In this document: positions 6,646 to 59,204 of the stretch, piece after piece
Position numbering within the stretch: the first letter of the stretch is position 1
Layout: each line of letters begins with the position of its first letter
Assembly: GCA_965207785.1 (NCBI GenBank)
Contig: CBDBNO010000011.1
Span: 140,664-204,663, forward strand
Source: Alphaproteobacteria bacterium
GTDB taxonomy: Bacteria > Pseudomonadota > Alphaproteobacteria > SP197
Reading direction: 5' to 3'
Length of the DNA stretch: 64,000 nt
Translations under genes and position numbers: made by a program
Notes under the pieces: generated by a model
Database searches by the model: none
The model's input: the letters and a program-made list of their open reading frames with translations, nothing else
Told to the model about the DNA's origin: nothing

Positions 6646-6646
6646 C

Positions 6647-13694: not shown

Positions 13695-14027
13695 TCATGG
13701 TCCCGGCCTCCCGGCGTCCTGCCGCGCCTGGAATTCCCGGGCCGCAAGGTAGAGGAACGACAGCGCCTCCATGGCGGTGACGTCGCTCCCCGGCAAGGGC
13801 TCCATCAATTCCTCGAGAAGAAGCAGGGTGCGGTTCACCCGATTGAGAAGGTCGCGCTGTTCGGATTCCGAGAGCACCAGGCGCATGTCGTCCTCGTCCT
13901 CCAGGGCGCAGGCGACCATGAAGCGCGAGATCGGCATCTTCGCCGCCTTGGCCCGCCGGCCGATCTCCGCCCAGTCGCTCGGGCGGCAGCTGACGCTGAA
14001 CAGCTGGTTGCGTCTCACGGTCGTGAC
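13695..14027 (-). CDS. small ribbon-helix-helix (CopG/MobC-N-terminal-like) DNA-binding protein, ~111 aa, GTG start
   Basis: VTTVRRNQLFSVSCRPSDWAEIGRRAKAAKMPISRFMVACAL... fits the RHH pattern (beta-strand, then A..G.S.S.y.r). Paralog of the next gene. Start inferred by alignment to the paralog. Confidence 0.45.
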   Translation of the reverse strand, partial: VTTVRRNQLFSVSCRPSDWAEIGRRAKAAKMPISRFMVACALEDEDDMRLVLSESEQRDLLNRVNRTLLLLEELMEPLPGSDVTAMEALSFLYLAAREFQARQDAGRPGP

Positions 14028-14347
14028 TCCTTCCCCTCGATCTCGACCTCGGCCTTCAGCAGGGACTCGATCTCCTCCTCGATCGCCTGCCAGGCCTCCG
14101 CTTCTCCGGCGCGCTCGAAGCGATGGCGCTCGATGCGGGCCAGCACCATGAGGTGATGCGCAAGGCGCCACTGCAGGTCGGCCGGAAGACCGGCCGGTTG
14201 GGGTGGTCTTGTGGTCAGCATCTGCTGCACAGCGTAGCGCGAGATGGGCATGTCGAGGGCCTTCGCGCGCTCGCCGATCCGGGCCCACTCGCTGTCTGAT
14301 GCCATGATGGTGCGCGCCTTGCGCCGCGGATCCTTCGCGTTCATCAT
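14015..14347 (-). CDS. small ribbon-helix-helix DNA-binding protein, ~111 aa, paralog of the downstream gene
   Basis: MMNAKDPRRKARTIMASDSEWARIGERAKALDMPISRYAVQQML...; shares the SDxEWAxIGxRAKAxxMPISRxxV core with the neighbour. Overlaps it by ~12 nt. Confidence 0.45.
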   Translation of the reverse strand: MMNAKDPRRKARTIMASDSEWARIGERAKALDMPISRYAVQQMLTTRPPQPAGLPADLQWRLAHHLMVLARIERHRFERAGEAEAWQAIEEEIESLLKAEVEIEGKESRP

Positions 14348-14690
14348 GGACTCGGTGGCCGGTGGTGGGAACGACGTAAGGGGGCCGTGATGGTGTGTTC
14401 TGGCGGATGTTCGCGTGATGTACTGGACAGAATCACCATGGTCTGCATTGGTATCCATTGTGTGTGATTGTCATGCATTGACGGTGTTCCGGAGCATATA
14501 GGCGATGGAAGAAAGTCTACGTATGACTTCCCCGAATGCAACTGTGGCTCTACGGATCGCTATGCATGTATAGATCTGATGTCGTCCGTGGTACTTGACA
14601 TGGCCGTATTCCGCGCGTAATTAGCGTGACTTGGAGAGAGAGATGCCTTTTGGTGTTTCGATTACATGTATACATGTCGTCAAATTTCTC

Positions 14691-14707
14691 TGTCACACCT
14701 GACGACG
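14691..14707. repeat. 17-bp direct repeat TGTCACACCTGACGACG, right junction (attR core)
   Basis: Exact match to 4241..4257. Preceded by a 230-bp AT-rich tract. Confidence 0.65.
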
Positions 14708-45066: not shown

Positions 45067-46203
45067 CTACCAGGTGCGGCCGCGGCCCTCGATGGGCCAG
45101 ATGTCGACGAGACGGTCGCCGCGGACGCAGTGATAGATGTCGTGGAGGTTGACCGTGGGATCGCAGTGGGGCGTGACGCATGTCACGACGTCGCCGACGG
45201 CGGGTCCGTTGGTTCCCGGCGGGACCACGATCCTGCCGTGCTCGTCACCCATGAATTCGTAGAGGGACCCTTCCGCGGCGCCGTCGGCGACGTCCGGCAC
45301 AGGTCCGTCCGTGGCAAAGGCCTTGATGCCGGCATCGATGGTGGCGGCGCCGGCCATGTTGGCCGAGATCACCGTCGACTGCACGAAGAGGGCGGTCCGG
45401 AAGGGGCCGGGGGTGCCGTCCCGGCGCATCACGGCATTGTACTCGACATCCATGAAGATCGCCGAACCCACCTGGATGTCGGTAAAGACACCGCAGTCCG
45501 AATCGTGATCATAGGTGCCTGTACCGCCGCCGGTCACGATCCCGGGAGAACCAGCGACCGTGGTGACGGCGCGCTGTGCCTCGTCGAGGTAGGCAGCAAC
45601 CTCGGCGGCCTCCCTCTCGCGCGCGGCGCAGTCGGCAATGTGCTGGATATCGCCGGCGTAGCACTGCAGTCCGGCGAGTTCGAGCGAGGGCCGGCGGACG
45701 ATCTCCCTTGCCAGCGCGACGGCATCCGCAATCGAGGAAACTCCGGTGCGGTGGAGACCGATGCCGAGATCGATGAGAACCCTCATCGGCTTCTGACGGC
45801 CGGCTGCAAGGGATGCGAGGCGATCGACGACCGTGGCGTTGTCGACCACGAGGATCAGTTCCTCTGCCGTGTCATTGAGCGCCAGCACCCGTTCGAGCTT
45901 GTCGGCCGTGACGATGGGCGAGGTGATGAGGATGCGGCCGATACCCTCGCGGACCAGGGCGTCGGCCTCGCCGAGCTTGGCGACACAGATGCCCGTCGCT
46001 CCGGCATCAAGCTGGAGTCGTGCGATTTCCGCGCACTTGTGGGTCTTGGCGTGGGGCCGCCAGCCGGCCGGCGTCCGGCTGAAGTGGGCTGCCAGGGTCC
46101 TGATGTTGTGTTCGAATGCATCGAGATCCAGCACGAGGGCGGGTGTCGCCAGGCGCCACCGGTTCTCTCCCTTGAGGTGGCGGTTGATGGAAAGGCCGGT
46201 CAT
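45067..46203 (-). CDS. PLP-dependent alanine-racemase-fold enzyme, DSD1/D-threonine aldolase/D-serine dehydratase-like
   Basis: Start near MTGLSINRHLKGENRWRLATPALVLDLDAFEHNI (family-typical). PHAKTHKC PLP-lysine motif. Confidence 0.6.
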   Translation of the reverse strand: MTGLSINRHLKGENRWRLATPALVLDLDAFEHNIRTLAAHFSRTPAGWRPHAKTHKCAEIARLQLDAGATGICVAKLGEADALVREGIGRILITSPIVTADKLERVLALNDTAEELILVVDNATVVDRLASLAAGRQKPMRVLIDLGIGLHRTGVSSIADAVALAREIVRRPSLELAGLQCYAGDIQHIADCAAREREAAEVAAYLDEAQRAVTTVAGSPGIVTGGGTGTYDHDSDCGVFTDIQVGSAIFMDVEYNAVMRRDGTPGPFRTALFVQSTVISANMAGAATIDAGIKAFATDGPVPDVADGAAEGSLYEFMGDEHGRIVVPPGTNGPAVGDVVTCVTPHCDPTVNLHDIYHCVRGDRLVDIWPIEGRGRTW

Positions 46204-46399
46204 GGCGGTCTCCAGGTTCGAACGGTTGATGGTGGCTGTGAACTCTTTCCACGGCAAGGTGCGAAGGGGCATTGCATCGCCGGATGATGCGGCGATACTT
46301 GCGATCGCCATTGACGGAGCTGCGCGTGATTCGCGTTCTGCTTCAGGACCAGTCCGGTGGTGTCCTTCTCCGGCTCTCTGCCGGGAGGTGCGGCGTCGC

Positions 46400-47929
46400 A
46401 TGAACCGGCGGCGCGGTCGGGACCGCCGCATGGAGGAGCGCCGTCAGGCGCCCGCTGCCGCGGTGTCGCCCGGTTGCCCGGGCGGTTGCTACAGACCGCT
46501 CTCTGACAGTGATGTGACGGCGATCCATCGCTGCGTGATGCGCCTCATGGAGGAAGTCGGGTTCTCGGGCGCCATTCCCCCGATGGTCGAGCGTGTCACC
46601 CAGCGGGGCGGCAGGGTCTGCGGCAACGGACGGCTCCACTTTCCGGCATCCCTCGTCGAGGAGGTGCTGCGGTGCAGCCGGCGCTCCTTTGTCGCCTGGG
46701 GGCAGACCCGTGAACATGACCTCGACATTGCCGACGGACGGGTTCACTTCGGATCCGGCGGTGCGTCGCCCAACATCGTCGATCTGGAGACGGGGCGTTA
46801 CCGGAGCGCCACGGTACGGGATCTCCACGACGTCGCCCGCATCGTCGATACCCTCGAGAACATTCACTTCTACGATCGCTCGCTCGTCGCCTGCGACATC
46901 GAGGACCCTCTCGCCTTCGACATCAACACGGCCTACGCCATCCTCGCCGGCACTGCCAAGCATGTCGGGACCAGCATCACCGAAGCCCGCAATGTCGAGG
47001 CTGTCGTTGGACTGTTCGACGCCATTGCCGGTGGCGAGGGCCGGTATCGCCAACAACCCTTTGCCATGCTGCTCTCGTGCCATGTGGTTCCGCCCCTTCG
47101 CTTTGCCGAGGAGGCCTTGTGGGTTCTCGAACGGGCCATTCCTTTGGGTATGCCGGTGATGCTGGTTTCCGCCGGACAGGCCGGCGCCACGGCGCCGGCG
47201 ACCTTGGCGGGGGCGGTGGCCCAGGCGGTTGCCGAGGCACTTGCCGGGCTGGTCTACTGCCACCTCATCGATCCCGATTGCGTCGCCATCATCGGGCCCA
47301 AGCCCCTGGTCTCGGACCTGCGCACCGGCGCCATGTGCGGTGGCAGCGGGGAACAGGCGGTCGCCGCCGCCGCTGCAACCCAGATGGCCCGTCACTACGG
47401 CCTGCCGTGCAGCGTCATGGCCGGCATCACGGATTCCAAGGTTCCCGATGCCCAGTCCGGCTACGAGAAGGCCTGTGCCGTCACCCTCGCAGCCCAGGCG
47501 GGCTGTTCGATGATCACCCAGAGTTGCGGCATGCACGCAAGCCTGCTCGGCGCCGCTCCGGAGAGTTACATCATCGACAACGACATGCTCGGCGCCATCA
47601 TGCGGACGGTCCGCGGCATCGAGGTCAACGACGACACGCTGTCGGTCGATACCGTCAACGAGGTGGTGACCGGAGAGGGCCACTATCTGGGCCACTCCCA
47701 GACCCTTGGCGCCATGACCCGGGACTACCTCTACCCCCGGCTGGCGGACCGGCAACCGCCCGGCGCATGGGAGGAAGCCGGTGCGCTCGACATCCGGGAA
47801 AGGGCGCGCCAGGAAGCCCGGCGGATCCTCCGGGATCACCGGACGGGGCACTTTTCTCGGGCGCTCGACCGGCGCCTGCGCGAGCGCTTTCCGATACACC
47901 TGCAGCCGGACGCCGTTCATCCGCCATGA
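46400..47929 (+). CDS. MttB-superfamily (trimethylamine methyltransferase-like, non-pyrrolysine) methyltransferase
   Basis: About 510 aa from MNRRRGRDRRMEERRQ... MttB fold motifs (TIM barrel). The first 600 nt of the ORF-track entry are antisense to the neighbouring gene. Confidence 0.7.
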   Translation: MNRRRGRDRRMEERRQAPAAAVSPGCPGGCYRPLSDSDVTAIHRCVMRLMEEVGFSGAIPPMVERVTQRGGRVCGNGRLHFPASLVEEVLRCSRRSFVAWGQTREHDLDIADGRVHFGSGGASPNIVDLETGRYRSATVRDLHDVARIVDTLENIHFYDRSLVACDIEDPLAFDINTAYAILAGTAKHVGTSITEARNVEAVVGLFDAIAGGEGRYRQQPFAMLLSCHVVPPLRFAEEALWVLERAIPLGMPVMLVSAGQAGATAPATLAGAVAQAVAEALAGLVYCHLIDPDCVAIIGPKPLVSDLRTGAMCGGSGEQAVAAAAATQMARHYGLPCSVMAGITDSKVPDAQSGYEKACAVTLAAQAGCSMITQSCGMHASLLGAAPESYIIDNDMLGAIMRTVRGIEVNDDTLSVDTVNEVVTGEGHYLGHSQTLGAMTRDYLYPRLADRQPPGAWEEAGALDIRERARQEARRILRDHRTGHFSRALDRRLRERFPIHLQPDAVHPP

Positions 47930-49863
47930 GGCTGCCCCACCTGTTCTCGCCCGTGACGATCGCCAGGACGGAGATCCGCAACCGAATCGTCTTCACCGGT
48001 CATCACACCCATCTTGCCGACGGACTGGTGAGCGACGATCTCGTGGCGTATCACGAGGCACGGGCAGCCGGCGGCGCCGGTCTCATCGTCGTCGAGATCG
48101 CCACCATCCACGACACCGGCGTCTTTGCCGCCAACTGCCTCGACGCCCGTTCGGCGGACTGCATTCCGGGATACCGACGCCTAGCCGGAGCGACCCAACG
48201 GCACGGCGCGCGGCTCTTCGGCCAGCTGTTTCATCCGGGCCGGGAAGTCCAGGTTCGCACCGATGGTCTCATGGCCACCGCCGTTGCTCCGTCCCCGGTT
48301 GCCAACGAGCGCTTTCACATCATGCCGCGGGCCATGTCCGGTGCCCTCATCGAGGAGGTGATCGAGGGATTCGCCCAGGGAGCCGGATATCTTGCCGAGG
48401 CGGGTCTTGACGGTGTGGAACTGGTCGCCAGCCACGGCTACCTGCCGGCGCAGTTTCTCAATCCCCGGCTCAATCTCCGCAATGACGCATGGGGAGGATC
48501 TTTCGACAGGCGCCTTCGATTCGTCGAGGAAACGCTGTCGGCGATGCGTGCCGCAATCGGTGATGCAACGCTCGGCATGCGGATTTCCGGCGACGAACTC
48601 GACCCGGCGCAGGGCCTCACCGCAGAGGATGTCGAAGAAATCGCAAGGGCCCTGGCGCACCGCCTTGACTACATCAGCGTCGTCGCCGGCATGTCGTCGA
48701 CTCTCGGCGCCTCGATCCACATCGCCGCGCCCATGGGTATTCCGGCCGGCTACATCGCTCCCCTTGCCCGCAGGGTGAAGGAGGCCTCCGGATTGCCGGT
48801 GATCGCCACCGGGCGCATCAACCAGCCGCAGATCGCAGAAGGCATCCTGGCATCAGGCGATGCGGATCTCTGTGGCATGACCCGAGCGATGATCTCGGAT
48901 CCCGCCATGCCACTGAAGGCCCGTGAAGCGCGCTTTGACGACATCCGTGCCTGCATTGCCTGCAACCAGGCCTGTATCGGGCACTCGCACAAGGGCGTTG
49001 CCATTTCCTGCATCCAGAATCCCGCCTCCGGGCGCGAACGCCGTTACGGCACGTATCTGCCTTCCCGCATCGCCCGGTCCGTCATGGTGGCAGGCGGCGG
49101 TCCGGGCGGGCTCAAGGCGGCGGCGGTGGCCGCCGCGCGAGGGCACCGTGTCACGTTGCACGAGGCGGGAGACGTGCCGGGGGGACAGGCGAGTCATGCC
49201 GCCATGCTTCCCGGCCGCGCGGAATTCGGCGGTCTGGTGCAGAATCTCGAACACGAAGCCCGCAGCGCCGGCGCGGAGATCCGCACCGGCTCGACGGTGA
49301 CTCCGCGCCTCGTCGAAGAGTGCGAGCCCGACGCCGTCATCGTGGCCACCGGCGCCCGGCCGTGGAGACCGCCCATCGAGGGCGAGGCCCACGTCGTGGA
49401 AGCCATCGCATTGCTCGACGGTGCCAACGTCGGGCATTCCGTCGTGATTGCCGATGGACGCGCCGACTGGACCGGGCCTGGCCTGGCGGAAAAGCTGGCC
49501 GAGGCAGGCCACAGGGTGCGTCTCGTGGTCAATGGCGCCATGGCAGGGGAGCTTCTCCAGCTCTATGTCCGCAACCACCATGTCGGGCGGCTGCGCCGGC
49601 TGGGCGTCGACATCATCACCCACGCGCGCCTCTTTGGCGCCGAAGATGACGTGGCCTACTTCCAGGACACGCTGACGGGCGAGGCGATCATCCTCGAGGA
49701 GATGGATTCCCTGGTGCTGTCACTTGGCTCTGTTCCGCACGACGATCTCGGCCTGGGTCTCGAGGCTGCCGGCCGGCCCTTCGTTCGGATTGGCGATTGC
49801 CTCGCCCCGAGAAGCGCCGAAGAGGCGGTTCTCGAGGGACTCGAGGCGGCATGGAGCCTGTGA
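47926..49863 (+). CDS. Old Yellow Enzyme-type NADH:flavin oxidoreductase fused to an FAD/NAD(P)-binding domain (DgcA/StcD/FadH-like)
   Basis: MRLPHLFSPVTIARTEIRNRIVF (OYE N-terminus). C-terminal GxGxxG Rossmann domain (VMVAGGGPGGLKAAA). ATGA overlap with MttB. Confidence 0.75.
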   Translation: MRLPHLFSPVTIARTEIRNRIVFTGHHTHLADGLVSDDLVAYHEARAAGGAGLIVVEIATIHDTGVFAANCLDARSADCIPGYRRLAGATQRHGARLFGQLFHPGREVQVRTDGLMATAVAPSPVANERFHIMPRAMSGALIEEVIEGFAQGAGYLAEAGLDGVELVASHGYLPAQFLNPRLNLRNDAWGGSFDRRLRFVEETLSAMRAAIGDATLGMRISGDELDPAQGLTAEDVEEIARALAHRLDYISVVAGMSSTLGASIHIAAPMGIPAGYIAPLARRVKEASGLPVIATGRINQPQIAEGILASGDADLCGMTRAMISDPAMPLKAREARFDDIRACIACNQACIGHSHKGVAISCIQNPASGRERRYGTYLPSRIARSVMVAGGGPGGLKAAAVAAARGHRVTLHEAGDVPGGQASHAAMLPGRAEFGGLVQNLEHEARSAGAEIRTGSTVTPRLVEECEPDAVIVATGARPWRPPIEGEAHVVEAIALLDGANVGHSVVIADGRADWTGPGLAEKLAEAGHRVRLVVNGAMAGELLQLYVRNHHVGRLRRLGVDIITHARLFGAEDDVAYFQDTLTGEAIILEEMDSLVLSLGSVPHDDLGLGLEAAGRPFVRIGDCLAPRSAEEAVLEGLEAAWSL

Positions 49864-51533
49864 TGCCGGCGCCTTCGCGCATGGGCGCCGGCGAGGCGGT
49901 GGCGCGTGTTCTCGAACGTGCCGGCGTCGACACGGTCTTTGGGGTCATCGGCGGCTCGATGCTCGAACTCCTCGATGCATTGCACGATTCTTCCATCTCC
50001 TACATCGGATCCCGCGACGAGCGAGCAGCCGGACACATGGCAGATGCCGCGGCACGCCTGACCGGCGGGCCGGGCGTGGTGCTCGGCGCCCAGGCCGGCC
50101 CCGGTGTTGCCAATCTGGCGACGGCCCTTGCGGAGGCTCACCTCGCCTATTCTCCCGTGGTGGCCATTGCCGGCGCCATCTCGCGAAGCCAGTCAGGGCG
50201 CGACACCTTCCAGGAGATCGACCAGGAGGCGCTCCTGGCGCCGGTCACCAAGCGCTCGATCCGGGTTCCTCATGCCGACCGGCTCTGCGAACTCCTCGAC
50301 GAAGCGCTGCGCGTTGCCATGACAGGCAGGCGAGGCCCCGTGGTGCTCCACGTGCCGCGGGACCTCTTCGCGTCATCGGTTTCAGGGGATCTGCCGTGGC
50401 CATCCGGGCCCATCACGGCAGGGGCGCCGGCGGACTGGCACGTCGAACAGGTGAAGGAGCTGCTTGCCGCCTCGGAGCGGCCGGTAATCGTGGCGGGTGG
50501 CGGATTGAAGTGGGCGAGGGCATCGGCTGAGCTCGATCGCCTCGCCCGTGCACTGGACGTCCCCGTCGTCGCCGCGACCGGCCACCATGACGTGCTGGCG
50601 ACGGATCACCCGTTGCTGGCCGGCCAGGCGGGCCCGCGCGGCAACCGTCTTGCCTCCAGGCTCACACGCGAAGCCGATGTCATCCTGGCACTGGGAACGC
50701 GCCTTGGATTCAACTCGACCTTTCACAGCGCCGACTACCTCAACCCTGACGCAGCCATCGTGCAGGTCGATATCGACGCCATGGCGCTTGGGCGTCACTT
50801 TCCGGTGACACTGGGCATTATCGCCGATGCCGGCGAGGCGGCCCGTGCCTTTCTGGCGGCCATCCCGGAGACAACACGTTGGCAGGCCTGGACAAGAGCC
50901 TTTCACGACGAAAGGCGCCTCATCGAGGCCGAACGCGAAGTCGAAGCCCGGCTGACCGGAATGCCGCTCTCGCCGGCAAGAGTGCTGGGAGAGATTCGCG
51001 ACACGCTGCCCCGGGATGCGATCGTCACTCTCGATACGGGCGCCGTCTGCCTGCAGGCCGCCGATCGCCTGAGGTTCGGCCGTTGTCCTGGTCTTGTGAC
51101 ACCGCTCGATTTCGGCCTCGTAGGCTTCGGCTATGCCGCTGCGCTTGGAGCACAGGCGGCGGCGCCCGGTTCCCCGGTGATCGCCATCATGGGCGATGGT
51201 GGATTCGGTCTCACCATGATCGAGCTGACGACGGCCGTGCAGCACGATCTTCCGGTGATCGCAGTCGTTCTCGACAACCGCGCCTGGGGCGCCGAGAAAG
51301 CGTACCAGCGGGACTTCTTCGACGGACGATACATGGGCGCCGATCTCCTCAATCCTCCCTTCGCCGACTACGCCCGGCTCATCGGCGCCAACGGCTGGCG
51401 CGTCAGGCGGCCGGGCGAGACTGCCCAGGCCCTCTCATCCGCTCTCGAGTCGGGCAGGCCGGCCGTCATCCATGTCGACGTCGATCCCGACGCCATCCAG
51501 AGCCTGAGGAAGGATCTCTTCCCGAAGGCCTGA
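49863..51533 (+). CDS. thiamine-pyrophosphate-dependent enzyme (acetolactate synthase/benzoylformate decarboxylase superfamily)
   Basis: TPP N-terminal, central and C-terminal domains (GDGGF TPP motif). Start overlaps the upstream stop (TGATG). Confidence 0.75.
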   Translation: MPAPSRMGAGEAVARVLERAGVDTVFGVIGGSMLELLDALHDSSISYIGSRDERAAGHMADAAARLTGGPGVVLGAQAGPGVANLATALAEAHLAYSPVVAIAGAISRSQSGRDTFQEIDQEALLAPVTKRSIRVPHADRLCELLDEALRVAMTGRRGPVVLHVPRDLFASSVSGDLPWPSGPITAGAPADWHVEQVKELLAASERPVIVAGGGLKWARASAELDRLARALDVPVVAATGHHDVLATDHPLLAGQAGPRGNRLASRLTREADVILALGTRLGFNSTFHSADYLNPDAAIVQVDIDAMALGRHFPVTLGIIADAGEAARAFLAAIPETTRWQAWTRAFHDERRLIEAEREVEARLTGMPLSPARVLGEIRDTLPRDAIVTLDTGAVCLQAADRLRFGRCPGLVTPLDFGLVGFGYAAALGAQAAAPGSPVIAIMGDGGFGLTMIELTTAVQHDLPVIAVVLDNRAWGAEKAYQRDFFDGRYMGADLLNPPFADYARLIGANGWRVRRPGETAQALSSALESGRPAVIHVDVDPDAIQSLRKDLFPKA

Positions 51534-51568
51534 GACCAGGCACGCCGAGAAGAACCGCACATCCGGTC

Positions 51569-52495
51569 ATGCCCTTTGACCTGGTTCCGTGCAACGCTCG
51601 GCTCATGCGTTCCGTGACCCACCGCCGGCTGATCCGGGCTCTCGACGCCGTTGCACAGCGACTCGATCATCCATGGACGGTCGAGGAGGTGGCTGCCGAA
51701 GCGGCATTCTCGCGTTTCCATTGCCAGCGCATGTTCCGCGCCATGACCGGCGATTCGATTGCCGGCCTGGTGCGGCGGTTGCGTCTGGAGAGGGCCGCCT
51801 GGCGCCTTCGCCACGAGAGCGTCGACGTGCTCGAGGTTGCCCTGGACGCGGGCTACAACTCGGCCGAGGCCTTTTCGAGAGCGTTCCGCCGCGCGTGCGG
51901 AATGAGTCCGGGCCACTACCGCAAGGTCTCAACGCCTCCGTCCCTTGCCGGTCCGGCGTCCCGTGTCAGGTACGACCCTGGCACCGGACGCCTGGACATC
52001 GATCTGCCAACAGGAGACATCAACATGGATATCCGCATCGAGACCATCGAAGACATCAGCGTGGCCCGCATTCGCCATGTCGGCCCCTACAACGAAGTGG
52101 GCCCGTGCTTTCAGCGCCTGTTCGCATGGGCGGCCAGCGTCGGCGCGACGCCTGGACGTATCTTCACCCTCTCGTTCGACGATCCCGGCGACGTTGCGCC
52201 GGGGAGCCTGCGTTCCGATGCCTGCCTCGAACTCGCAACCGACGCATCGCCGCCGCCCGGCATCACCCTCGACACGTTGCCTGCGGGGCGCTACGCCATC
52301 TACACCCATCGTGGTCCCTACGACGGCATTGCGGAAGCATACCGGCGGATGTTTTCGCTGTGGTTGCCGCAAAGCGGCGAGGACATCGACGATCGCCCGG
52401 ACATGGAGATCTACCGGAACTCGCCGCTTGACACCCAGCCCGCCGATCTGCTGACCGATCTCTGCATTCCGTTGAAGCCAGCGCCCGGTTCCTGA
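51569..52495 (+). CDS. AraC-family transcriptional regulator with C-terminal GyrI-like effector-binding domain
   Basis: N-terminal AraC helix-turn-helix (SRFHCQRMFRAMTGDSIAGLVRRLRLERA). C-terminal GyrI-like domain. Confidence 0.7.
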   Translation: MPFDLVPCNARLMRSVTHRRLIRALDAVAQRLDHPWTVEEVAAEAAFSRFHCQRMFRAMTGDSIAGLVRRLRLERAAWRLRHESVDVLEVALDAGYNSAEAFSRAFRRACGMSPGHYRKVSTPPSLAGPASRVRYDPGTGRLDIDLPTGDINMDIRIETIEDISVARIRHVGPYNEVGPCFQRLFAWAASVGATPGRIFTLSFDDPGDVAPGSLRSDACLELATDASPPPGITLDTLPAGRYAIYTHRGPYDGIAEAYRRMFSLWLPQSGEDIDDRPDMEIYRNSPLDTQPADLLTDLCIPLKPAPGS

Positions 52496-52738
52496 CACAA
52501 AGAGTTGTCCGTGCTGCCCGTTGTCCGGCCGGAGGAGGCCGATGCCGGGGCCTCCTTCTCCCAGGACACCTTCAGCAGCGAAGCGATCGAGGTCGACGGA
52601 TTCGAGACCGTTGTCGTCGCGGCTTGCCCACGAAGCGGCATAGCACTGCAGGACAAGATCTTTGCGTGTCGCGCACACTTCCATCTCGTCGGCGGAGCAC
52701 CGTGGAGGAGAGGTCACGAGCGGGCCTCAGGAGAGTCC

Positions 52739-53446
52739 TCACACGATCGTGCAGTGCAGCGCAGGAAGTCCTGTGATCCGGGCGGCAATGCGGTCGCCGC
52801 GGACGACCGCGCCGACCCCGGCGGGCGTGCCGGTGAAGACGAGGTCTCCGGGTCTGAGTTCCACCAGGCCAGAGAGCCAGGCGAGTGATTCGTCGGGCTT
52901 CCAGATCATCTGGCCGAGGGTGCCCGACTGCCGCCTTTCGCCGTTCACTTCGAGCGTGATCGAGGCGTCCTCGGGCGGTTCCCGGCGCGCCGCCGGCACG
53001 AGGGCGCCCACCGGACCGGAGGCGTCGAATCCCTTGGCCATGTCCCAGGGCCTCCCCGATCTCTTGGCGAGGTCCTGTAGGTCACGGCGCGTCAGATCGA
53101 TGCCCACGGCATGGCCGAAGATGGCCTCGCGGGCCGCCGAGCGGGAGAGGTCCCGGCCTCCCGAAACAAGCGCGACGACGAGTTCGACCTCGTGGTGCAG
53201 GCTGGCGGTGGCGGGAGGGTAGGGAAGCGATCCTCCCCCGGGGACGATCGCCGACGCCGGCTTGGCGAAGAAGAACGGCTCTTCGCGTTCCGGATCGCCG
53301 CCCATCTCGATCGCATGGTCGGCATAGTTGCGCCCGATGCAGAAGACACGGCCCACGGGAAAGAGCCGGGTCTCGCCCTCGATGGCAAGGCCCACGGGCT
53401 CCGCCGGTGGAAAGATGAAGGTCAGGGACTCTCTCCCGCTGGTCAT
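52739..53446 (-). CDS. fumarylacetoacetate hydrolase (FAH) family protein
   Basis: 235 aa, FAH-fold motifs. Confidence 0.7.
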   Translation of the reverse strand: MTSGRESLTFIFPPAEPVGLAIEGETRLFPVGRVFCIGRNYADHAIEMGGDPEREEPFFFAKPASAIVPGGGSLPYPPATASLHHEVELVVALVSGGRDLSRSAAREAIFGHAVGIDLTRRDLQDLAKRSGRPWDMAKGFDASGPVGALVPAARREPPEDASITLEVNGERRQSGTLGQMIWKPDESLAWLSGLVELRPGDLVFTGTPAGVGAVVRGDRIAARITGLPALHCTIV

Positions 53447-53549
53447 CGACGGGACCCATGGTCAGGTACCGGAAGCCGGTGTCAACCGACTGCAGCCCGG
53501 CCCCATTCCTGCGCCAGGACCTGCCGTTGCCGCATCCTTGACGCAACTC

Positions 53550-54716
53550 TCAGGTCCGAGGACCGGTTCCATCGGCGAGCACAGAGTAGCCGGACGGCGT
53601 GTGGTAGGCAGCCAGGGTGCGCTGCCGCATGATCCAGCGGCTTTGGCCCATGCCCGTCAGGGCAGGGCTTCTCAGCCATCCCGGCCAGGCCATGAACGCG
53701 CTGTAGAGTCCGGAGAGCCACTGTGTCCGGTTGATCAGCGGCCGGTTTTCCGCCTCCCAGGCTGAGAGAGCGTCACGTGTCGGGCCGGAAGGGTTGACGT
53801 GCATCGCCAGCGATACGGCGTTGACCATGGCGAGCGCGGCGCCCTGGCCGAAGTTGGGTGACATGGCATGGGCCGCATCGCCGATCAGCACGACCCGGCC
53901 CGCGTGCCATCGCCTGAGGATCACACTTTGATACTGGTCCCAACTCCAGCGCTCCTGTTCGCCGATGCTCTCGATGAAGGACCTCAGGCAGGGAAAGGAA
54001 GCGATCCAGGTCTCGATATCGATCGGCACCTGGATGCCGGCGGGATCGTCCCTTCGCGCAATGAGGCCCATGTAGAAGGCGTCCTCGCTGCAGGGCACGA
54101 GCATTGCCCGTCGCTTTCCGCTCCAGTACTCGGCGAAGGTGCCGGCTGGCCAGTCGAAGCGGTCGCGCACAGGCAGCAGGAGACGGATGGTGCCGTCGGC
54201 GAAGAACCGGCGCTTGCGCTCCAGGGCGCGACGCACGCGGTTGCGACAGCCGGCGCCGTCGGCCGCCACGACGAGTGCGGCCTCGCGCCTCGTGCCGTCC
54301 GACAGTTCGATGGCCCCTTCGGGATCCACGTCGCGCACCTCCGAGAGGAGTCGGATCTCGACGCCCGAACGGCGCGCCGCTCCGGCCAGGCCGGCGACGA
54401 CGCGGCTGCGCAGCATCATGAACATGCGCAACGCCGAATCCTCCGTGCGCCAGTCGTACGCCGAAATCAGGTGTCCTGATCCGTCCCGCGTCTCCCGGTT
54501 GTCGAGCGGGAAGGCGCCCTGCACCGCCTCGTCGTAGGCGCCCAGCATCTCCAGCACCTTGAGGCCGTTCTCGGAAAGCGCCAGGGCCGAACCGTGGCTT
54601 CGGATTTCACCGCCGCGCTCATGAAGGGTGACGCTCCATCCCACGCGGGCCAGGGCCGTCGCCGCGGCGAGGCCGGCGAAGCCTCCCCCGACGACCTCCG
54701 CGTGACGATCGTGCAC
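53550..54716 (-). CDS. FAD-dependent aromatic-ring monooxygenase (salicylate/3-hydroxybenzoate hydroxylase-like)
   Basis: GGGFAGL dinucleotide motif, GDAAH motif, group A flavin monooxygenase layout. Confidence 0.7.
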   Translation of the reverse strand: MHDRHAEVVGGGFAGLAAATALARVGWSVTLHERGGEIRSHGSALALSENGLKVLEMLGAYDEAVQGAFPLDNRETRDGSGHLISAYDWRTEDSALRMFMMLRSRVVAGLAGAARRSGVEIRLLSEVRDVDPEGAIELSDGTRREAALVVAADGAGCRNRVRRALERKRRFFADGTIRLLLPVRDRFDWPAGTFAEYWSGKRRAMLVPCSEDAFYMGLIARRDDPAGIQVPIDIETWIASFPCLRSFIESIGEQERWSWDQYQSVILRRWHAGRVVLIGDAAHAMSPNFGQGAALAMVNAVSLAMHVNPSGPTRDALSAWEAENRPLINRTQWLSGLYSAFMAWPGWLRSPALTGMGQSRWIMRQRTLAAYHTPSGYSVLADGTGPRT

Positions 54717-54746
54717 CGCGTTCCGCCCCCTTCGCCCGGTACGGCT

Positions 54747-56444
54747 CTAGTGCGCGGTCATCGGCCTGTCGGGACTCAGGCCAACGATTGGCGCCATTGC
54801 CTCGGGATCAACCGCGACGTCAATCACATAAGGCTCGCTGCAGGCGAGTCCGCGCTTGAGCGCACCGGCGACGGCACCTGGCTTGGTGACGCGCTCGCCC
54901 TGGCACTTCAGGCTTCTCGCCACCTCTGCGTAGTCGATGTCGAGGAAGTCGCATTCGCGGTGGACACCGTAAAGCTTGCGCTCGAAGTGCTTCTGGAACG
55001 CGAGGGTGCCGTTGTTCAGGACCACGACGACGACGGCTACGCCATAGCGCGCAGCCGTTTCCAGTTCGTTGAAGACATAGCCGAAGGCGCCGTCGCCCGT
55101 CAGGCAGAGCACCCTGCTCCCGGGCCTCGCCATCATTGCGCCGATCGCTGCGGGCAGCGACCAGCCTATACCGCCCGTACCCCGAGGCGAGATCATCGCT
55201 CGCCCGCCGCCCGGCGTGTCGATATGGCTCATGGCCCACCCGGTCACATAGCTTGCGTCCGTGACGATGATCGTGTCCTCGTCGATCAGCGCGGAAACCT
55301 CGCGCATCACCCGCTCGGGGCGAATGGGAGTCTGCTCCGACGTAAAGACCGCGCGCGTCCATGCGCGCCATTCGGCGCGCAGCGCGTCAAGCCGGGGGCG
55401 CGGATCAGCAGCCCGGGGGCAATCTCCCTCGACGGTCTCGCACAGGTCTCGCAGGACCTCCCGCGCGTCGCCCACGAGCCCCACATCGGTAGGGAAATTG
55501 CGTCCGATTTCCTGCGCGTCGACGTCGATTTGGACGATACGGCAGCCCGGGGCGGGGAGTGTCCAGTTCATGGAGCAGATCTGGCCGTTCCGGGACCCCG
55601 CGATCAGCACCGCGTCGGCATCACCGAGGATCGTGTTGGCGATCCGGCCGCGACCGTAGAGTCCGCCGGTCGAGGAACCCGAGACGCCGGCGCTCAGCGG
55701 ATGGCCGTCCGCGATCAGGCCCTTGCCGTTCATGGTGGTGGCGACAGGCGCGTTCAATGCCTCGGCGAGTTCGACAACCTCGTCAGCGGCACCGGAGATG
55801 ACCGCCCCGCCGCCTGCCAGGATGACTGGCCGCTCCGCTGCCAGCAGGATCCCGGCCGCCTCCGCGGTCGCGTCGCGCGAAGCGCGGCTGCGGGTCGACG
55901 GATAGTGCGTGTGCCGGCCTTCTATCTCAGCCTCGCTCCACTCGATCTCCGTTCCGATCACGTCAGGCGGGCACAGGACGACGACGGGTCCCGGTCGGCC
56001 GGAGGTCGAGATGCGGAAGGCGTGCATTGCCGTCTCAAGCGCGCGCGTCGGCGTCTCGATTCTGCCGACCCACTTGACGAAGGGGCCGAGACAGGCCTCG
56101 TGATGGATCTCGCTGGCCGCGTGACGCCCGCGATTTTCCGCAGGGATATCCTGCACGAAGGCGATAACGGGGTTCGACGACTTCTGCGCCTCCAGGAGCC
56201 CCGTGATCAGATTGGTCGCTCCCGGCCCGCAGGTCGCCAGGCACACGCCTGGCCGCCCGGTCGCTCTGGCGTATCCATGCGCCATGATGGCGCCGTGCTT
56301 CTCGTCGTGGACCGTTACGGTCCTGATCGAGTTGCCATCCAGGCCGTGTACGATCTCCACCGGGTCTTCCATGCCGAAGACGCACGTGACGCCGTGGGCC
56401 TTGAGCAGAGCCGCGATCGCCTTGCCGGCCGTTGTCCGCATCAC
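54747..56444 (-). CDS. thiamine-pyrophosphate-dependent enzyme (acetolactate synthase large subunit-like)
   Basis: 565 aa. Three TPP-enzyme domains, GDGAF motif. Confidence 0.75.
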   Translation of the reverse strand: MMRTTAGKAIAALLKAHGVTCVFGMEDPVEIVHGLDGNSIRTVTVHDEKHGAIMAHGYARATGRPGVCLATCGPGATNLITGLLEAQKSSNPVIAFVQDIPAENRGRHAASEIHHEACLGPFVKWVGRIETPTRALETAMHAFRISTSGRPGPVVVLCPPDVIGTEIEWSEAEIEGRHTHYPSTRSRASRDATAEAAGILLAAERPVILAGGGAVISGAADEVVELAEALNAPVATTMNGKGLIADGHPLSAGVSGSSTGGLYGRGRIANTILGDADAVLIAGSRNGQICSMNWTLPAPGCRIVQIDVDAQEIGRNFPTDVGLVGDAREVLRDLCETVEGDCPRAADPRPRLDALRAEWRAWTRAVFTSEQTPIRPERVMREVSALIDEDTIIVTDASYVTGWAMSHIDTPGGGRAMISPRGTGGIGWSLPAAIGAMMARPGSRVLCLTGDGAFGYVFNELETAARYGVAVVVVVLNNGTLAFQKHFERKLYGVHRECDFLDIDYAEVARSLKCQGERVTKPGAVAGALKRGLACSEPYVIDVAVDPEAMAPIVGLSPDRPMTAH

Positions 56445-56928
56445 CCGAATCCGCCTGGTTGCCCTGTGCCGCGGAACGGGAAGGGCAAACCACTGTGATG
56501 ACGCGTCTCAATGTCCTGCCCGGGAGTGCTGTTTCCGGCGGCGAGGCCGTACTTCAGGGACTCCGGCATTCCGTATCGTGGGAACGTGGTGGCCATGAGT
56601 TCCCTTGCCAGCACCCGGTACTGCAAGGTGCCCCCGGCCCTGGCCGGGAGATCGTCATCGCTCGCAGCGGCCAGCGGGAAACGCATCGATATCCTCTCGC
56701 AGATTCCCACGTCGCATCGAAGGTAGTACGGGCCATGGGGGTGATCAAGCGGCCATCGCGGCGGCGATGCCCGGAGTGATCAGGCGGTCACGGCCATGGC
56801 CGAGACCACACCGTCAGGGGCCACATGGCGTTCAGGTTGGAAGACAGGTCGGCATGCGGTCTGACCTCGGCGCCACGGATGCTGCGGCGGGACGGACTCC
56901 GCGGTGGCAGGGCCGTCCCCGGTCACGA

Positions 56929-57010
56929 TGCGTGGTCGGCTGCCGACCGGTCGGCCAGGCATTCGAAGACAGCAGCCGACGCGAGGCCGGTGCCGCCTGG
57001 ATAGTCGAAG
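56929..57010 (-). pseudogene. displaced duplicate of the 3' end of the tcuA-like gene (~85% identical to 57713..57804), including its stop codon
   Basis: Encodes FDYPGGTGLASAAVFECLADRSAADHAS*, against FNYPGGTGLTSGAVFGRLAGQSAAASAS* in the intact gene. Both copies begin with CCGGTCACGATGCG. Confidence 0.6.
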
Positions 57011-57016
57011 CAGGGA

Positions 57017-57104
57017 CGCATTCTCACCCTCTCATTCAACGATCCGGGCGATGTTGCGCCGGAGAACCTGCGTCCCGATGCCCGTCTCGAGCTCACGCCC
57101 GACA
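57017..57104 (+). pseudogene. GyrI-like domain gene fragment, ~85% nt identity to 52157..52244 of the AraC/GyrI regulator
   Basis: Direct nucleotide comparison (tcaccctctcattcaacgatccgggcgatgttgcgccggagaacctgcg... versus tcaccctctcgttcgacgatcccggcgacgttgcgccggggagcctgcg...). Confidence 0.45.
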
Positions 57105-57202
57105 CAGTCACGTCACGGAGTCCCCGAGCGAAGCTGGCAGCGGCGCCTGTCGTGGAATGATCTCCATATCGTGGAGTCAGCCGAGCGCTTCGAGCCGTGC
57201 CA

Positions 57203-57520
57203 TCAGGTCCGAGGGACCGCGGTGCTCGTCCGGGACAGCGGGAAGGGCTCACGGCCGGGGTGCACGACGAATCGCTCATCCACCTCGAGATCGGAGGCGG
57301 CGAGTTCGAATCCCTTTCCGGTCCTGGGCGCGGCGCTTCGCTTTATCTCGACCGCCCACAGGCGGCGGTCGGGCATGTTCAGTAGGAGATCGATCTCCGC
57401 TCCCGCCCGGGTGCGGTAGAACCAGGCGTCCGTCCCGAAGGGCGCGGCCGCGATCAGATTCTCGATCGCGTAGCCTTCCCAGCTTGCCCCGTTCACCACC
57501 GGATCGGGAGAATGCGCAAG
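57203..57520 (-). pseudogene. C-terminal DUF4143-domain fragment of an AAA+ ATPase (gene remnant)
   Basis: ...VVNGASWEGYAIENLIAAAPFGTDAWFYRTRAGAEIDLLLNMPDRRLWAVEIKRSAAPRTGKGFELAASDLEVDERFVV matches the DUF4143 C-terminal module. No ATPase domain is present. Confidence 0.4.
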
Positions 57521-57536
57521 CACGTCGCGCAACCCG

Positions 57537-57645
57537 GCAAGGGAAGCAGGATGTCGCCGCAGCAAAGTCTCCGATCTGCGCTGGCGCGACATGGGCCAAG
57601 GCGTCATCACGCTCAGCGATTCGAAGACCGGGCCGGGCAGACAAG
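57537..57645 (+). pseudogene. tyrosine-integrase fragment homologous to the catalytic-box region of the island integrases
   Basis: AREAGCRRSKVSDLRWRDMGQGVITLSDSKTGPGRQ, against int1 TGCRSAEIVTLRWREYRDGHLHLADSKTGPRM and int2 TGCRRNEIVRLRRDEVAGTRLRLRDSKTGPRT. Only ~36 codons remain. Confidence 0.5.
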
Positions 57646-57716
57646 GGAGGTCTGCGTGCAGTCTGGCGCGGCAAAGCTCCGCGGCCTGCCGGTTCCGGAG
57701 GCCGTAGAGCCTCCGG

Positions 57717-59204
57717 TCACGATGCGCTGGCGGCTGCCGACTGGCCGGCCAGGCGTCCGAAGACCGCACCCGACGTGAGACCGGTGCCGCCTGGATAGTT
57801 GAAGTAAAAGAGGCCACCGACGAGCTCACCGGCTGCAAGGAGGCCGTCGATTGGCCTGAGATCGCCGTCGAGAACGTTGGCGGCGGTGTCAATGCGCAGG
57901 CCGCCAAACGTGAAGGTGACACCGCAGGTGACGGCATAAGCCTCGAAGGGAGGCTCATCGATGGTGTTGGCCCAGTTCGACTTGGGGATGGCCAGCCCTT
58001 CGGTGGACCGTCCGTCCCTGACCGAGGGGTCGAAGGCGATGTCCTGCCGGACGGCGGCATTGAAGGACCGGATCGTGGCCAGGGCCGCTACGCCGTCGAC
58101 ACCCGACATGCGCGAGACGAGATCCTCGAGGGTCGGGGCGCGAACCCGTGTCACCTGGCGTATGCGGTACTCGTCCCGCAGCAGTCCGGACACCTTGGCA
58201 TCGAAGACCTGCCAGGCGAGCTGCTCGGGCTGGTTGAGGATCTCGGCGCCGTACTTCGCATAGGTGTAGTTCCGAAAATCGGCGCCTTCGTCGAGGAATC
58301 TCTCTCCTCTCGCGTTGATCATGACGGAGAAGGGATAGGAGTGCTTCTGGAAGCCGTCGCCAACGGAAAGGTCGCCGAACTCCGGGGCATTGAGGTCCCA
58401 GGCGACGGCGTGGCACCCCGACCAGTGCCCAAAGGGCGCGGCGCCGATGTCGAGGGCCATGCGGATGCCGTCGCCCGTATTGAAACGGCTGCCGCGCACC
58501 CGTGCCAGATCCCAGCCCGGGCCGAGGTAACGGGCGCGCCATTCGTGGTTCGCCTCGAAGCCGCCGCAGGCCAGCACAACCGCTCCCGCGGCAATGGTAC
58601 GGAACGCACCGTCGTGCAACACCCTGACGCCGGTAACCCGGGTGTCCTTCCTGACAAGTTCGACGGCCCTGGCTTCGTGGATGAGACGGATTCCAGCCTT
58701 CCGGGCGGCCCGTGAAAGACCGTCCACCAGTCCCTCGCCGCCGCCGGCCACCTCGACGGCAAGTCCCCCCCAGAACCGGAAACGCCCGTCGACTTCGAAC
58801 GCCTGGCGTCCCCACATCGGCTGGAACCGGATGCCCTTGGAACGCATCCACAAAAGAGTCTCGCGACTTCTCGTCACAAGGTAGTCCGCGAGGTCGGGGT
58901 CGCAGCGGTAGCGGGTCACGCGTCCCATGTCGTCAAGAAAGTCTTCCCTGCTGTAGGTGCCGAAGTCGGACCGGGCAATCTCCTCGTCGGACAGATCAGG
59001 CATGAGTGTCCTGAGGTCCCCGATCCCGTCATAGACCGTCCGCATGGCGCCGGCCGTGAACCGGCTGTTGCCGCCAGACTCTTCGGCGGGGGCGCGTTCG
59101 ATCATGAGGACATTGCTGCCGGCATCGTTGGCGCCGAGTGCCGCGCAATGGGCGGCGTTGCCACCTCCGATGACGATGACGTCGGCCCTTGCCGGTACGG
59201 TCAT
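57717..59204 (-). CDS. FAD-dependent tricarballylate dehydrogenase (TcuA)-like flavoprotein
   Basis: 495 aa. N-terminal VIVIGGGNAAHCAAL FAD motif. TcuA/fumarate-reductase flavoprotein family layout. Start overlaps the cobB stop. Confidence 0.7.
   Translation of the reverse strand: MTVPARADVIVIGGGNAAHCAALGANDAGSNVLMIERAPAEESGGNSRFTAGAMRTVYDGIGDLRTLMPDLSDEEIARSDFGTYSREDFLDDMGRVTRYRCDPDLADYLVTRSRETLLWMRSKGIRFQPMWGRQAFEVDGRFRFWGGLAVEVAGGGEGLVDGLSRAARKAGIRLIHEARAVELVRKDTRVTGVRVLHDGAFRTIAAGAVVLACGGFEANHEWRARYLGPGWDLARVRGSRFNTGDGIRMALDIGAAPFGHWSGCHAVAWDLNAPEFGDLSVGDGFQKHSYPFSVMINARGERFLDEGADFRNYTYAKYGAEILNQPEQLAWQVFDAKVSGLLRDEYRIRQVTRVRAPTLEDLVSRMSGVDGVAALATIRSFNAAVRQDIAFDPSVRDGRSTEGLAIPKSNWANTIDEPPFEAYAVTCGVTFTFGGLRIDTAANVLDGDLRPIDGLLAAGELVGGLFYFNYPGGTGLTSGAVFGRLAGQSAAASAS

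What the first reader, a model, noticed from the sequence alone, without database searches (positions are those of the whole stretch)
56929..57716. Decayed relic of a second, related element that had integrated at the 3' end of the tcuA-like gene
Just downstream of the intact tcuA-like stop (57717) lie a ~36-codon fragment of an integrase homologous to the island integrases (57537-57645), a DUF4143 ATPase tail, a GyrI-domain fragment that is ~85% identical to part of the AraC/GyrI gene at 52157-52244, and an ~85%-identical second copy of the last ~28 codons plus stop of the tcuA-like gene (56929-57010). A diverged duplicate of a gene's 3' end next to an integrase is the classic signature of an element whose attP carries a replacement gene end. 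Together with the hydA insertion, this argues that this integrase family repeatedly targets the termini of protein-coding genes, and that the intact island is the active member.
Basis: seen in the sequence. Interest (0 to 1): 0.65.

Follow-up and report, generated by a model that had tools for sequence, protein, structure and literature searches.

The report
Duplication scar filled with mobile-element debris
The four gene fragments downstream of the tcuA-like gene are real, but they are best read as a small local tandem duplication of the ends of two neighbouring genes that later collected mobile-DNA debris. This is ordinary genome decay, not evidence that an integrase targets gene ends.

Summary
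All four fragments exist, with small coordinate shifts:
- a copy of the last 28 codons of the tcuA-like gene
- a GyrI-domain fragment
- a DUF4143 ATPase tail
- a 29-31-codon integrase piece

The interpretation does not hold. Three related genomes (L002-L004) show the empty site: the tcuA-like gene and the AraC/GyrI gene converge, about 60-145 bp apart. The relic's GyrI fragment and tcuA-end copy come from these two neighbours. They are joined head-to-tail in permuted order (L003 position 11973 joined to 11398), which is the junction expected of a tandem duplication spanning about 0.58 kb.

The closest genome (L001) has the same junction, so it arose once, in a shared ancestor. The tcuA-end copy differs from its parent by 10 non-synonymous and 2 synonymous changes, so it decayed as non-coding DNA. 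The repeat also runs about 100 nt past the stop codon.

The integrase piece is cut on both sides by deletions. Its family is a multi-copy, two-integrase, GInt-like island. The window's intact member has only a 17-bp direct repeat and splits hydA without supplying a replacement end. The ATPase is a plasmid-type gene, still intact in L001.

Verdict: a real but ordinary duplication scar holding mobile-element debris. Low interest.

The parts
57717..59204 (-). Intact tcuA-like FAD flavoprotein gene. Its last 28 codons are the parent of the duplicated end.
   Evidence: Pfam FAD_binding_2 4.6e-40. It has 92-96% amino-acid identity to orthologues in L001-L004. Its C-terminus is conserved with the empty-site genomes.
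57637..57716 (-). Intergenic spacer, copy A: native DNA downstream of the tcuA stop. It includes the hairpin CCGGAGGC...GCCTCCGG just after the stop.
   Evidence: Homologous to the spacer of the empty site in L003, up to the point where the integrase fragment starts. The window lacks 19 nt that L001 has.
57549..57635 (+). Internal fragment (29-31 codons) of an int1-family tyrosine recombinase, reading towards tcuA.
   Evidence: 52% identity to int1 residues 252-280, E 2.5e-5 against the whole window. The same fragment is in L001. It abuts native spacer on one side and the ATPase upstream region on the other, so both ends are deletion junctions.
57501..57511 (.). Window-specific deletion junction. 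The 888 bp present in L001 (L001 11724-12611: ATPase promoter region and first 278 codons) are missing here.
   Evidence: Window-to-L001 blastn map. L001 has a full 389-420-aa AAA_14 + DUF4143 ORF.
57177..57510 (-). 3' remnant (about 110 codons, frameshifted near the end) of a DUF4143 (COG1373-type) ATPase gene.
   Evidence: Pfam DUF4143 1.9e-11. It is 91.5% identical to the L001 gene tail. Homologues at about 60% identity are common 'ATP-binding protein' genes on alphaproteobacterial plasmids.
57103..57176 (.). 74-nt spacer of unknown origin between the ATPase stop and the GyrI fragment.
   Evidence: Shared with L001 at 80%. No match elsewhere in the window.
57014..57102 (+). Fragment of the GyrI-like domain of the neighbouring AraC/GyrI gene: the start of the duplicated segment.
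   Evidence: 84% identity to 52154-52234. Maps to L003 11884-11973, 254-343 nt inside the AraC/GyrI gene of the empty site.
57011..57013 (.). Novel junction of the tandem duplication: GyrI interior joined to tcuA codon -28.
   Evidence: Window 57102->57013 equals L003 11884-11973 and is followed directly by window 57013->56917, which equals L003 11398-11491. L001 has the identical junction.
56923..57010 (-). Decayed copy of the last 28 codons plus stop of the tcuA-like gene.
   Evidence: 88% identity to 57713-57804. It differs by 10 non-synonymous and 2 synonymous changes. Shared with L001.
56825..56922 (-). Intergenic spacer, copy B: about 100 nt homologous to the native spacer downstream of tcuA.
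   Evidence: Alignment with the functional copies and the L003 spacer. The right-hand limit is uncertain by 5-20 nt.
52497..56824 (-). 4.3-kb insert in spacer copy B. It holds an FAA-hydrolase gene (52739-53446), an FAD monooxygenase gene (53550-54716), a TPP enzyme gene (54747-56444) and an 89-codon ORF (56441-56710).
   Evidence: Pfam. Absent from L002-L004. L001 keeps only the hydrolase and has a histidine kinase and an OpuAC gene instead. Host-like G+C content.
51650..52495 (+). Intact AraC/GyrI regulator gene, parent of the GyrI fragment. In the empty site it is the convergent neighbour of tcuA.
   Evidence: Pfam HTH_18 and GyrI-like. In L002-L004 its stop lies about 60-145 bp from the tcuA stop.

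Best explanation
The stretch 56825-57716 is the interior of a small tandem duplication.

Steps that the sequence shows:
1. In the ancestor, the tcuA-like gene and the AraC/GyrI gene converged across a spacer of about 145 bp.
2. In the common ancestor of this genome and L001, a segment was duplicated head-to-tail. It ran from tcuA codon -28, through the spacer, to a point 343 nt inside the GyrI domain (about 0.58 kb).
3. This left both genes intact at the outer edges. Between them it left a non-functional middle: a GyrI 3' piece joined to a tcuA 3' piece, plus a second copy of the spacer.
4. The copies decayed as non-coding DNA.

Steps that are inferred:
1. The dispensable middle then collected foreign DNA. 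In the tcuA-proximal copy, a plasmid-type DUF4143 ATPase gene and a two-integrase island of the int1 family landed.
2. Later deletions removed all of the island except 29-31 codons of one integrase. They also removed the rest of that spacer and 254 nt of the GyrI piece.
3. In this genome, a further deletion removed two thirds of the ATPase gene.
4. The distal spacer copy received a block of catabolic genes.

Nothing in the window's relic is an intact gene. The order of duplication and insertions is also inferred.
For: - Empty site: in L002, L003 and L004 the tcuA stop is followed directly by the AraC/GyrI 3' end, with no insert.
- Permuted mapping onto L003: 11375-11529, then foreign DNA, then 11884-11973 joined to 11398-11491.
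- The same junction is in L001, so it was a single ancestral event.
- The repeat extends about 100 nt into the spacer in both copies.
- The inferred ancestral copy is 93-98% identical to the local tcuA end and 89-92% identical to the local GyrI.
- The copy differs from the functional end by 10 non-synonymous and 2 synonymous changes.
- Between the window and L001 the relic pieces are 80-89% identical and the genes 92-94%. This dates the duplication to roughly 1.2-1.5 times the age of the split between the two genomes (the ratio is my own estimate).
- The integrase piece abuts native spacer directly, so that boundary is a deletion junction.
- L001 keeps a full ATPase gene.
- ATPase homologues are plasmid genes with no constant integrase neighbour.
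- The int1 family is multi-copy, and its intact member here has only a 17-bp repeat.
Against: - The tcuA-proximal copy is incomplete. The 354 nt between L003 11530 and 11883 are replaced by foreign DNA, so the full duplicated unit is never seen.
- The two spacer copies are interrupted by foreign DNA at nearly the same point, within 5-20 nt. A plain duplication followed by independent insertions does not predict this. It could mean a shared earlier insertion or a preferred insertion site there.
- No genome was found with the bare duplication and no foreign DNA.
- The fragments are short (about 90 nt each), so the inference that the copy was made locally has limited power.
Confidence: 0.6

Rival explanations
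1. Campbell-type re-insertion of an aberrantly excised circle. An element (ATPase and/or int1-family island) first sat in the spacer between tcuA and AraC/GyrI. An illegitimate excision between tcuA codon -28 and the GyrI interior produced a circle carrying the element plus both host flanks. That circle re-entered a related chromosome by homologous recombination within the stretch of about 190 nt (tcuA end plus spacer). The result has the same permuted junction as a tandem duplication.
For: - It predicts exactly the observed order: tcuA, spacer, foreign DNA, GyrI piece joined to tcuA end, spacer.
- It explains why foreign DNA starts at about the same spacer position in both copies.
- Mobile DNA is present between the repeats.
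Against: - It needs more steps, including a prior insertion that had already removed 254 nt of the GyrI 3' end.
- The copy looks locally derived.
- There is no homology between the foreign DNA of the two copies.
- No circular or plasmid form was found, and ATPase relatives in metagenomes are only 52-63% identical.
- It still gives no role to site-specific targeting of the gene end.
Confidence: 0.2
2. An integrative element related to the island integrated site-specifically into the 3' end of the tcuA-like gene. Its attP carried a replacement gene end, so the distal copy is the displaced original end. The element then decayed to about 700 bp.
For: - Direct repeats of the gene end flank a stretch that holds an integrase fragment of the island family.
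- The stretch is absent from the empty site.
- GInt-type islands are reported to insert at gene ends and alter C-termini in some cases (PMC5385486).
Against: - The distal copy is fused to a piece of the gene from the other side of the empty site, which this model does not explain.
- The repeat covers about 100 nt of spacer as well.
- The changes are 10 non-synonymous to 2 synonymous, with near-identity at origin.
- The integrase fragment is internal and bounded by deletions.
- The intact family member has a 17-bp repeat and disrupts hydA with no replacement end.
- By the family's architecture (end, int1, int2, cargo), the ATPase lies upstream of the integrase, outside where the island body should be.
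- Only the window and L001, out of 80 tcuA loci, have the repeat.
Confidence: 0.1
3. Assembly artefact: a chimeric or collapsed join in a metagenome-assembled genome.
For: The relatives are metagenome-assembled genomes, and repeats can mislead assemblers.
Against: The same junctions occur in two independent assemblies that differ by 7-20% across the region. The pattern of divergence fits neutral decay.
Confidence: 0.02

Closest known systems
Tandem segmental duplication with a novel head-to-tail junction (illegitimate or microhomology-mediated recombination between sister chromosomes)
   Same: Two sequences that lie 0.58 kb apart in the empty site are joined end-to-start. Both outer genes stay intact. 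The inner copies decay neutrally.
   Different: The proximal copy is incomplete and filled with foreign DNA. The bare duplication has not been seen in any genome.
Genomic islands whose attP carries the 3' end of the target gene (tRNA, tmRNA and some protein-gene targeting integrases)
   Same: There is a direct repeat of a gene's 3' end, with an integrase remnant between the repeats and an empty site in relatives.
   Different: The distal repeat is fused to the neighbouring gene's fragment. The repeat covers spacer DNA. The copy decayed as non-coding DNA. The integrase fragment is not next to an element end. The intact family member uses a 17-bp repeat.
GInt genomic islands (Bardaji et al. 2017, PMC5385486): integrase operon, cargo, AT-rich 3' end, short imperfect direct repeats, insertion at gene 5' or 3' ends
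   Same: The island family that supplied the integrase fragment has integrase genes at one end, variable cargo and an AT-rich far end. It has a short direct repeat and inserts into the 5' end of hydA.
   Different: It has two overlapping integrase genes, not three plus ginD. Homology to Gin proteins was not tested. In the relic only 29-31 codons survive.
COG1373 / AAA_14 + DUF4143 ATPases
   Same: The relic tail matches DUF4143. The L001 orthologue has both domains.
   Different: In the window it is a truncated, frameshifted pseudogene.

Membership tests
Integrative element with attP-borne replacement gene end | Direct repeats that mark the two element-chromosome junctions, with element DNA directly inside each repeat | tested here: not met
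   The inner side of the distal repeat is a fragment of the host's neighbouring AraC/GyrI gene. The inner side of the proximal repeat is an internal integrase fragment, which is a deletion junction.
Integrative element with attP-borne replacement gene end | Empty site in related genomes | tested here: met
   L002-L004 have tcuA followed directly by AraC/GyrI.
Integrative element with attP-borne replacement gene end | The replacement end is a functional homologue, so differences fall mostly at synonymous sites | tested here: not met
   10 non-synonymous and 2 synonymous changes. The inferred ancestral copy is 93-98% identical to the local gene.
Integrative element with attP-borne replacement gene end | Intact members of the same integrase family show the same kind of attachment site | tested here: not met
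   The window island has a 17-bp perfect repeat and hydA is split after codon 23 with no replacement. The L012 island is inserted inside the D-serine-dehydratase-like (Dsd-like) gene.
Tandem segmental duplication | A novel junction joins the distal end of a contiguous ancestral segment to its proximal end, in the same orientation | tested here: met
   L003 11973 is joined to 11398. The junction is identical in L001.
Tandem segmental duplication | Both copies of the whole segment are present | tested here: not met
   The proximal copy lacks L003 11530-11883, which is replaced by integrase and ATPase DNA.
Tandem segmental duplication | The copies derive from the same lineage | tested here: inconclusive
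   The inferred ancestral copy is closest to the window/L001 genes, but the fragments are only about 90 nt and the reconstruction favours that outcome.
Tyrosine recombinase (Pfam Phage_integrase PF00589) | Match to the family profile and presence of the catalytic residues (R, K, H, R, H/W, Y) | tested here: inconclusive
   No Pfam hit for the 77-residue frame. The BLAST match to int1 residues 252-280 has E 2.5e-5 and covers only the region of the first catalytic arginine.
AAA_14 + DUF4143 ATPase | C-terminal DUF4143 domain above the Pfam cut-off, and an N-terminal AAA_14 domain | tested here: met
   DUF4143 scores 44.4 bits against a cut-off of 28.1 in the window. AAA_14 is deleted in the window and present in L001.
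GInt islands (for the source of the integrase fragment) | ginABCD operon: three integrases plus a small helix-loop-helix protein | tested here: not met
   Only two overlapping integrase genes in all six copies examined. Similarity to Gin proteins was not tested.

The most novel reading that the evidence does not exclude
The two-integrase, GInt-like islands that are multi-copy in these genomes sometimes excise aberrantly with both host flanks and re-enter by recombination. This would create long flank duplications such as the one here. It would be a natural route by which an element acquires a host gene end inside its attachment region, which is the first step towards an attP that carries a replacement gene end.
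Probability: 0.1. Interest if true: 0.5.

Novelty: new member of a known kind. Interest (0 to 1): 0.22.

Why it matters
The result mainly serves as a caution. A repeated gene end next to an integrase fragment looks like an attachment-site signature. Here, comparison with the empty site shows a local duplication scar that later trapped mobile DNA.

It removes the support this locus seemed to give to the idea that this integrase family targets the ends of protein-coding genes.

The locus does show that a dispensable duplicated spacer can become a landing pad. It now holds an ATPase gene, an island remnant and a catabolic gene block, and it splits a conserved gene cluster (tcuA-like, AraC/GyrI, TPP enzyme, OYE-type oxidoreductase, MttB).

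The integrase family itself may deserve its own study. It is multi-copy and carries two integrases and defence cargo. Its left end is the conserved motif CACACC, seven variable bases, then GCACCKKCGGTGC.

Tried and rejected
- Exact-sequence look-up of the tcuA-like protein and of P0012: not on record.
- Search for a repeat of the hydA end around the island by blastn and the repeat finder: nothing long. The 17-bp repeat was found only after the family's left end had been defined.
- Search for an intact source element through the L001 ATPase. Plasmid hits were about 60% identical with no constant integrase neighbour. Metagenome hits were 52-63% identical, and int1-like genes were not adjacent.
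- Idea that the tcuA-like gene is a cobalamin-pathway gene (CobZ-like) because it overlaps cobB: dropped. In distant genomes it travels with the MttB, OYE-type oxidoreductase and TPP-enzyme genes instead.
- Idea that L012 shows a second, independent insertion at the tcuA terminus: rejected. Its island sits in the D-serine-dehydratase-like (Dsd-like) gene, and a later deletion brought the integrase remnant next to tcuA.
- Search for the family's end motif in the relic: only a chance-level match at 56807-56825, which lies in native spacer.
- Test for shared foreign DNA between the two duplicate copies: none.
- Rfam, tRNA and promoter/terminator scans of the region: nothing above threshold.
- Look for an AT-rich island end in the 4.3-kb insert: none.

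Full report
**What is there**

The window is about 65% G+C. The gene at 57717-59204 (minus strand) is an FAD flavoprotein of the TcuA type (Pfam FAD_binding_2).

- The segment 56919-57010 repeats 57713-57804 at 88% over 93 nt (E 5e-26). This is the last 28 codons, the stop and 4 nt more. The copy's stop is at 56923-56925.
- The segment 57014-57094 repeats 52154-52234 at 84% (E 1e-16). That region lies in the GyrI-like domain of an AraC/GyrI gene on the plus strand (about 51650-52495).
- The minus strand of about 57177-57510 encodes the C-terminal part of a DUF4143 ATPase (E 1.9e-11).
- The plus strand of 57549-57635 encodes 29 residues that are 52% identical to residues 252-280 of the island integrase at 4307-5497. 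E is 2.5e-5 against the whole window, and it is the best non-self hit.

**The empty site**

A scan of one genome per species with the tcuA-like protein returned 80 loci. Four are close relatives, at 87-93% nucleotide identity.

In L002, L003 and L004 the tcuA stop is followed after about 60-145 bp by the 3' end of the AraC/GyrI gene, in convergent orientation. The TPP-enzyme, OYE-type oxidoreductase, MttB and D-serine-dehydratase-like (Dsd-like) genes follow in the same order as window 52496-45068.

The window therefore carries a 5.2-kb insert (52497-57716) relative to these genomes. The insert consists of the relic plus an FAA hydrolase gene, an FAD monooxygenase gene, a TPP enzyme gene and a small ORF.

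**The key junction**

I mapped the window onto the empty site of L003, reading in the sense of tcuA. The order is:
- L003 11375-11529: tcuA end and spacer
- foreign DNA
- L003 11884-11973: GyrI interior
- L003 11398-11491, following directly: tcuA codon -28 to the stop and beyond

Two sequences that lie 0.58 kb apart across the spacer are thus joined end-to-start, with 3 nt between them (57011-57013). This is the junction expected of a tandem duplication, or of a circle containing both flanks. It is not expected of an attachment site.

**Age and origin**

- The closest genome, L001, has the same mosaic with the same junction. The event therefore happened once, in the common ancestor. Of the 80 loci, only these two have a repeated tcuA end.
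- The consensus of the two relic copies is 93-98% identical to the local functional tcuA end and 89-92% identical to the local GyrI sequence.
- The window copy differs from its parent by 10 non-synonymous and 2 synonymous changes.
- Between the window and L001 the relic pieces are 80-89% identical, against 92-94% for the neighbouring genes.

Together these indicate a copy made locally, shortly before the two genomes split, that then decayed as non-coding DNA. The 88% identity reflects decay, not a foreign origin.

**Extent of the repeat**

At lower identity the repeat continues about 100 nt past the stop codon in both copies, and L003's spacer is homologous over the same stretch. The proximal copy ends where the integrase fragment begins (about 57637). 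The distal copy ends at about 56825, where the catabolic insert begins. The two end points coincide within 5-20 nt. This is only weakly improbable by chance and remains unexplained.

**The foreign pieces**

*ATPase.* In L001 the ATPase gene is complete (AAA_14 plus DUF4143). The window has lost 888 bp, comprising the gene's start and first 278 codons. Homologues at about 60% identity are common 'ATP-binding protein' genes on alphaproteobacterial plasmids, next to replication, toxin-antitoxin or defence genes, with no constant integrase neighbour. Metagenome relatives are 52-63% identical and again lack int1-like neighbours.

*Integrase piece.* It abuts native spacer on one side and the ATPase upstream region on the other. 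Both its ends are therefore deletion junctions, and it marks no element end.

**The integrase family**

- The island integrase has thousands of relatives, many at 65-87% identity.
- Several copies occur per genome: four on L003's chromosome and two on the window's own contig.
- In every context read, a 374-residue integrase is followed by a second, overlapping integrase of about 379 residues, then by variable cargo that is mostly defence-related.
- The left ends of five copies, plus the L012 relic, share the motif CACACC, seven variable bases, then GCACCKKCGGTGCTAA.

In the window, the island is bounded by a perfect 17-bp repeat, TGTCACACCTGACGACG, at 4241-4257 and 14691-14707. It splits hydA after codon 23. 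The first 23 codons lie at 14760-14692 on the minus strand. The far end of the island is AT-rich.

This resembles GInt islands, which have an integrase operon, cargo, an AT-rich 3' end, 10-11-nt repeats and insertion at gene ends (PMC5385486). The difference is two integrases instead of three plus GinD.

The family therefore makes short repeats and does not supply replacement gene ends.

**The second lineage**

L012 has a 145-residue N-terminal integrase relic (48% identity to int1, E 1e-37) close to its tcuA stop. Its conserved left end is intact and abuts the last 100 nt of the Dsd-like gene. The integrase reading frame is fused to the C-terminus of the TPP enzyme.

The island therefore sat inside the Dsd-like gene, and one large deletion brought the remnant next to tcuA. 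This is not a second hit at the tcuA terminus.

**Conclusion**

The best reading (confidence about 0.6) is a tandem duplication of about 0.58 kb across the convergent ends of two genes. Its dispensable middle later collected an ATPase gene, a two-integrase island (now 29-31 codons) and, in the second spacer copy, a catabolic gene block.

A variant is equally compatible with the junction but needs more steps (about 0.2). In it, an element excised aberrantly with both flanks and re-entered by homologous recombination.

No RNA family, tRNA or promoter signal is present in the stretch. The feature is real, decayed and ordinary.

Noticed in passing
window 4241-14707: The intact island is bounded by a perfect 17-bp direct repeat, TGTCACACCTGACGACG (4241-4257 and 14691-14707). 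It splits the hydantoinase-like gene hydA after codon 23, and the N-terminal 23 codons lie at 14760-14692 on the minus strand. Removing the island and one repeat restores the reading frame. The island has two overlapping integrase genes (4307-5497, 5494-6645), a giant Calx-beta protein gene as cargo, and an AT-rich far end (about 14380-14690).
   Followed up: partly
window 4244-4272; L164-L167 about 9865-9900; L012 about 12080-12115: The two-integrase islands are multi-copy, with at least four copies on one related chromosome, and carry mostly defence cargo (type ISP restriction, Mrr, AAA_16, HATPase_c_3, Vsr). Their left ends share CACACC, seven bases that differ at every copy, then the hairpin GCACCKKCGGTGC followed by TAA. 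The variable seven bases recall the coupling sequences of Tn916- or Tn554-type elements. The architecture resembles GInt islands but with two integrases.
   Followed up: partly
L012 11457-12215: There is a chimeric ORF (11475-11984, minus strand). The N-terminal 145 residues of an int1-family integrase are fused in frame to the C-terminus of a TPP enzyme. The last roughly 10 codons of L012's tcuA-like gene are replaced by antisense sequence from the 3' end of the TPP enzyme gene. The MttB, OYE-type oxidoreductase, TPP-enzyme and D-serine-dehydratase-like genes have been deleted in this lineage.
   Followed up: partly
window 45068-59204; L005, L006, L045: In distant genomes the tcuA-like gene travels with MttB-family methyltransferase, OYE/FMN oxidoreductase and TPP-enzyme genes. 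These probably form one catabolic cluster, possibly for a quaternary amine. The 5.2-kb insert splits this cluster in the window. Adjacency to cobB (4-nt overlap at 59201-59204) occurs only in the window, L001-L004 and L012.
   Followed up: no
window 12863-12982: There are about 15 perfect tandem copies of the 8-nt unit GGCGACCC, upstream of the giant Calx-beta gene inside the island.
   Followed up: no
window about 13340-13500: A fragment of an aspartate/ornithine carbamoyltransferase N-terminal domain (Pfam OTCace_N, profile positions 93-147 only) lies inside the island. It is another gene fragment among the cargo. A NikA-like ORF lies next to it at 13695-14288.
   Followed up: no
window 52586; L001 14385-18217: At this point L001 carries 3.8 kb that the window lacks: a hybrid histidine kinase/response regulator gene and an OpuAC-type binding protein gene. 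The window in turn carries the monooxygenase and TPP enzyme genes that L001 lacks. The shared FAA-hydrolase gene is only 86% identical between the two genomes, against about 93% for the flanking genes.
   Followed up: no
window 46040-46132: ARAGORN calls a 93-nt tRNA-Ala (anticodon GGC) inside the coding region of the D-serine-dehydratase-like gene (45067-46431, minus strand). It is probably a false positive.
   Followed up: no
window 29014-29115: There is a weak match (E 0.06-0.12) to the C-terminal catalytic region of both island integrases, in an alternative frame inside the hydantoinase B gene. It is probably chance.
   Followed up: no
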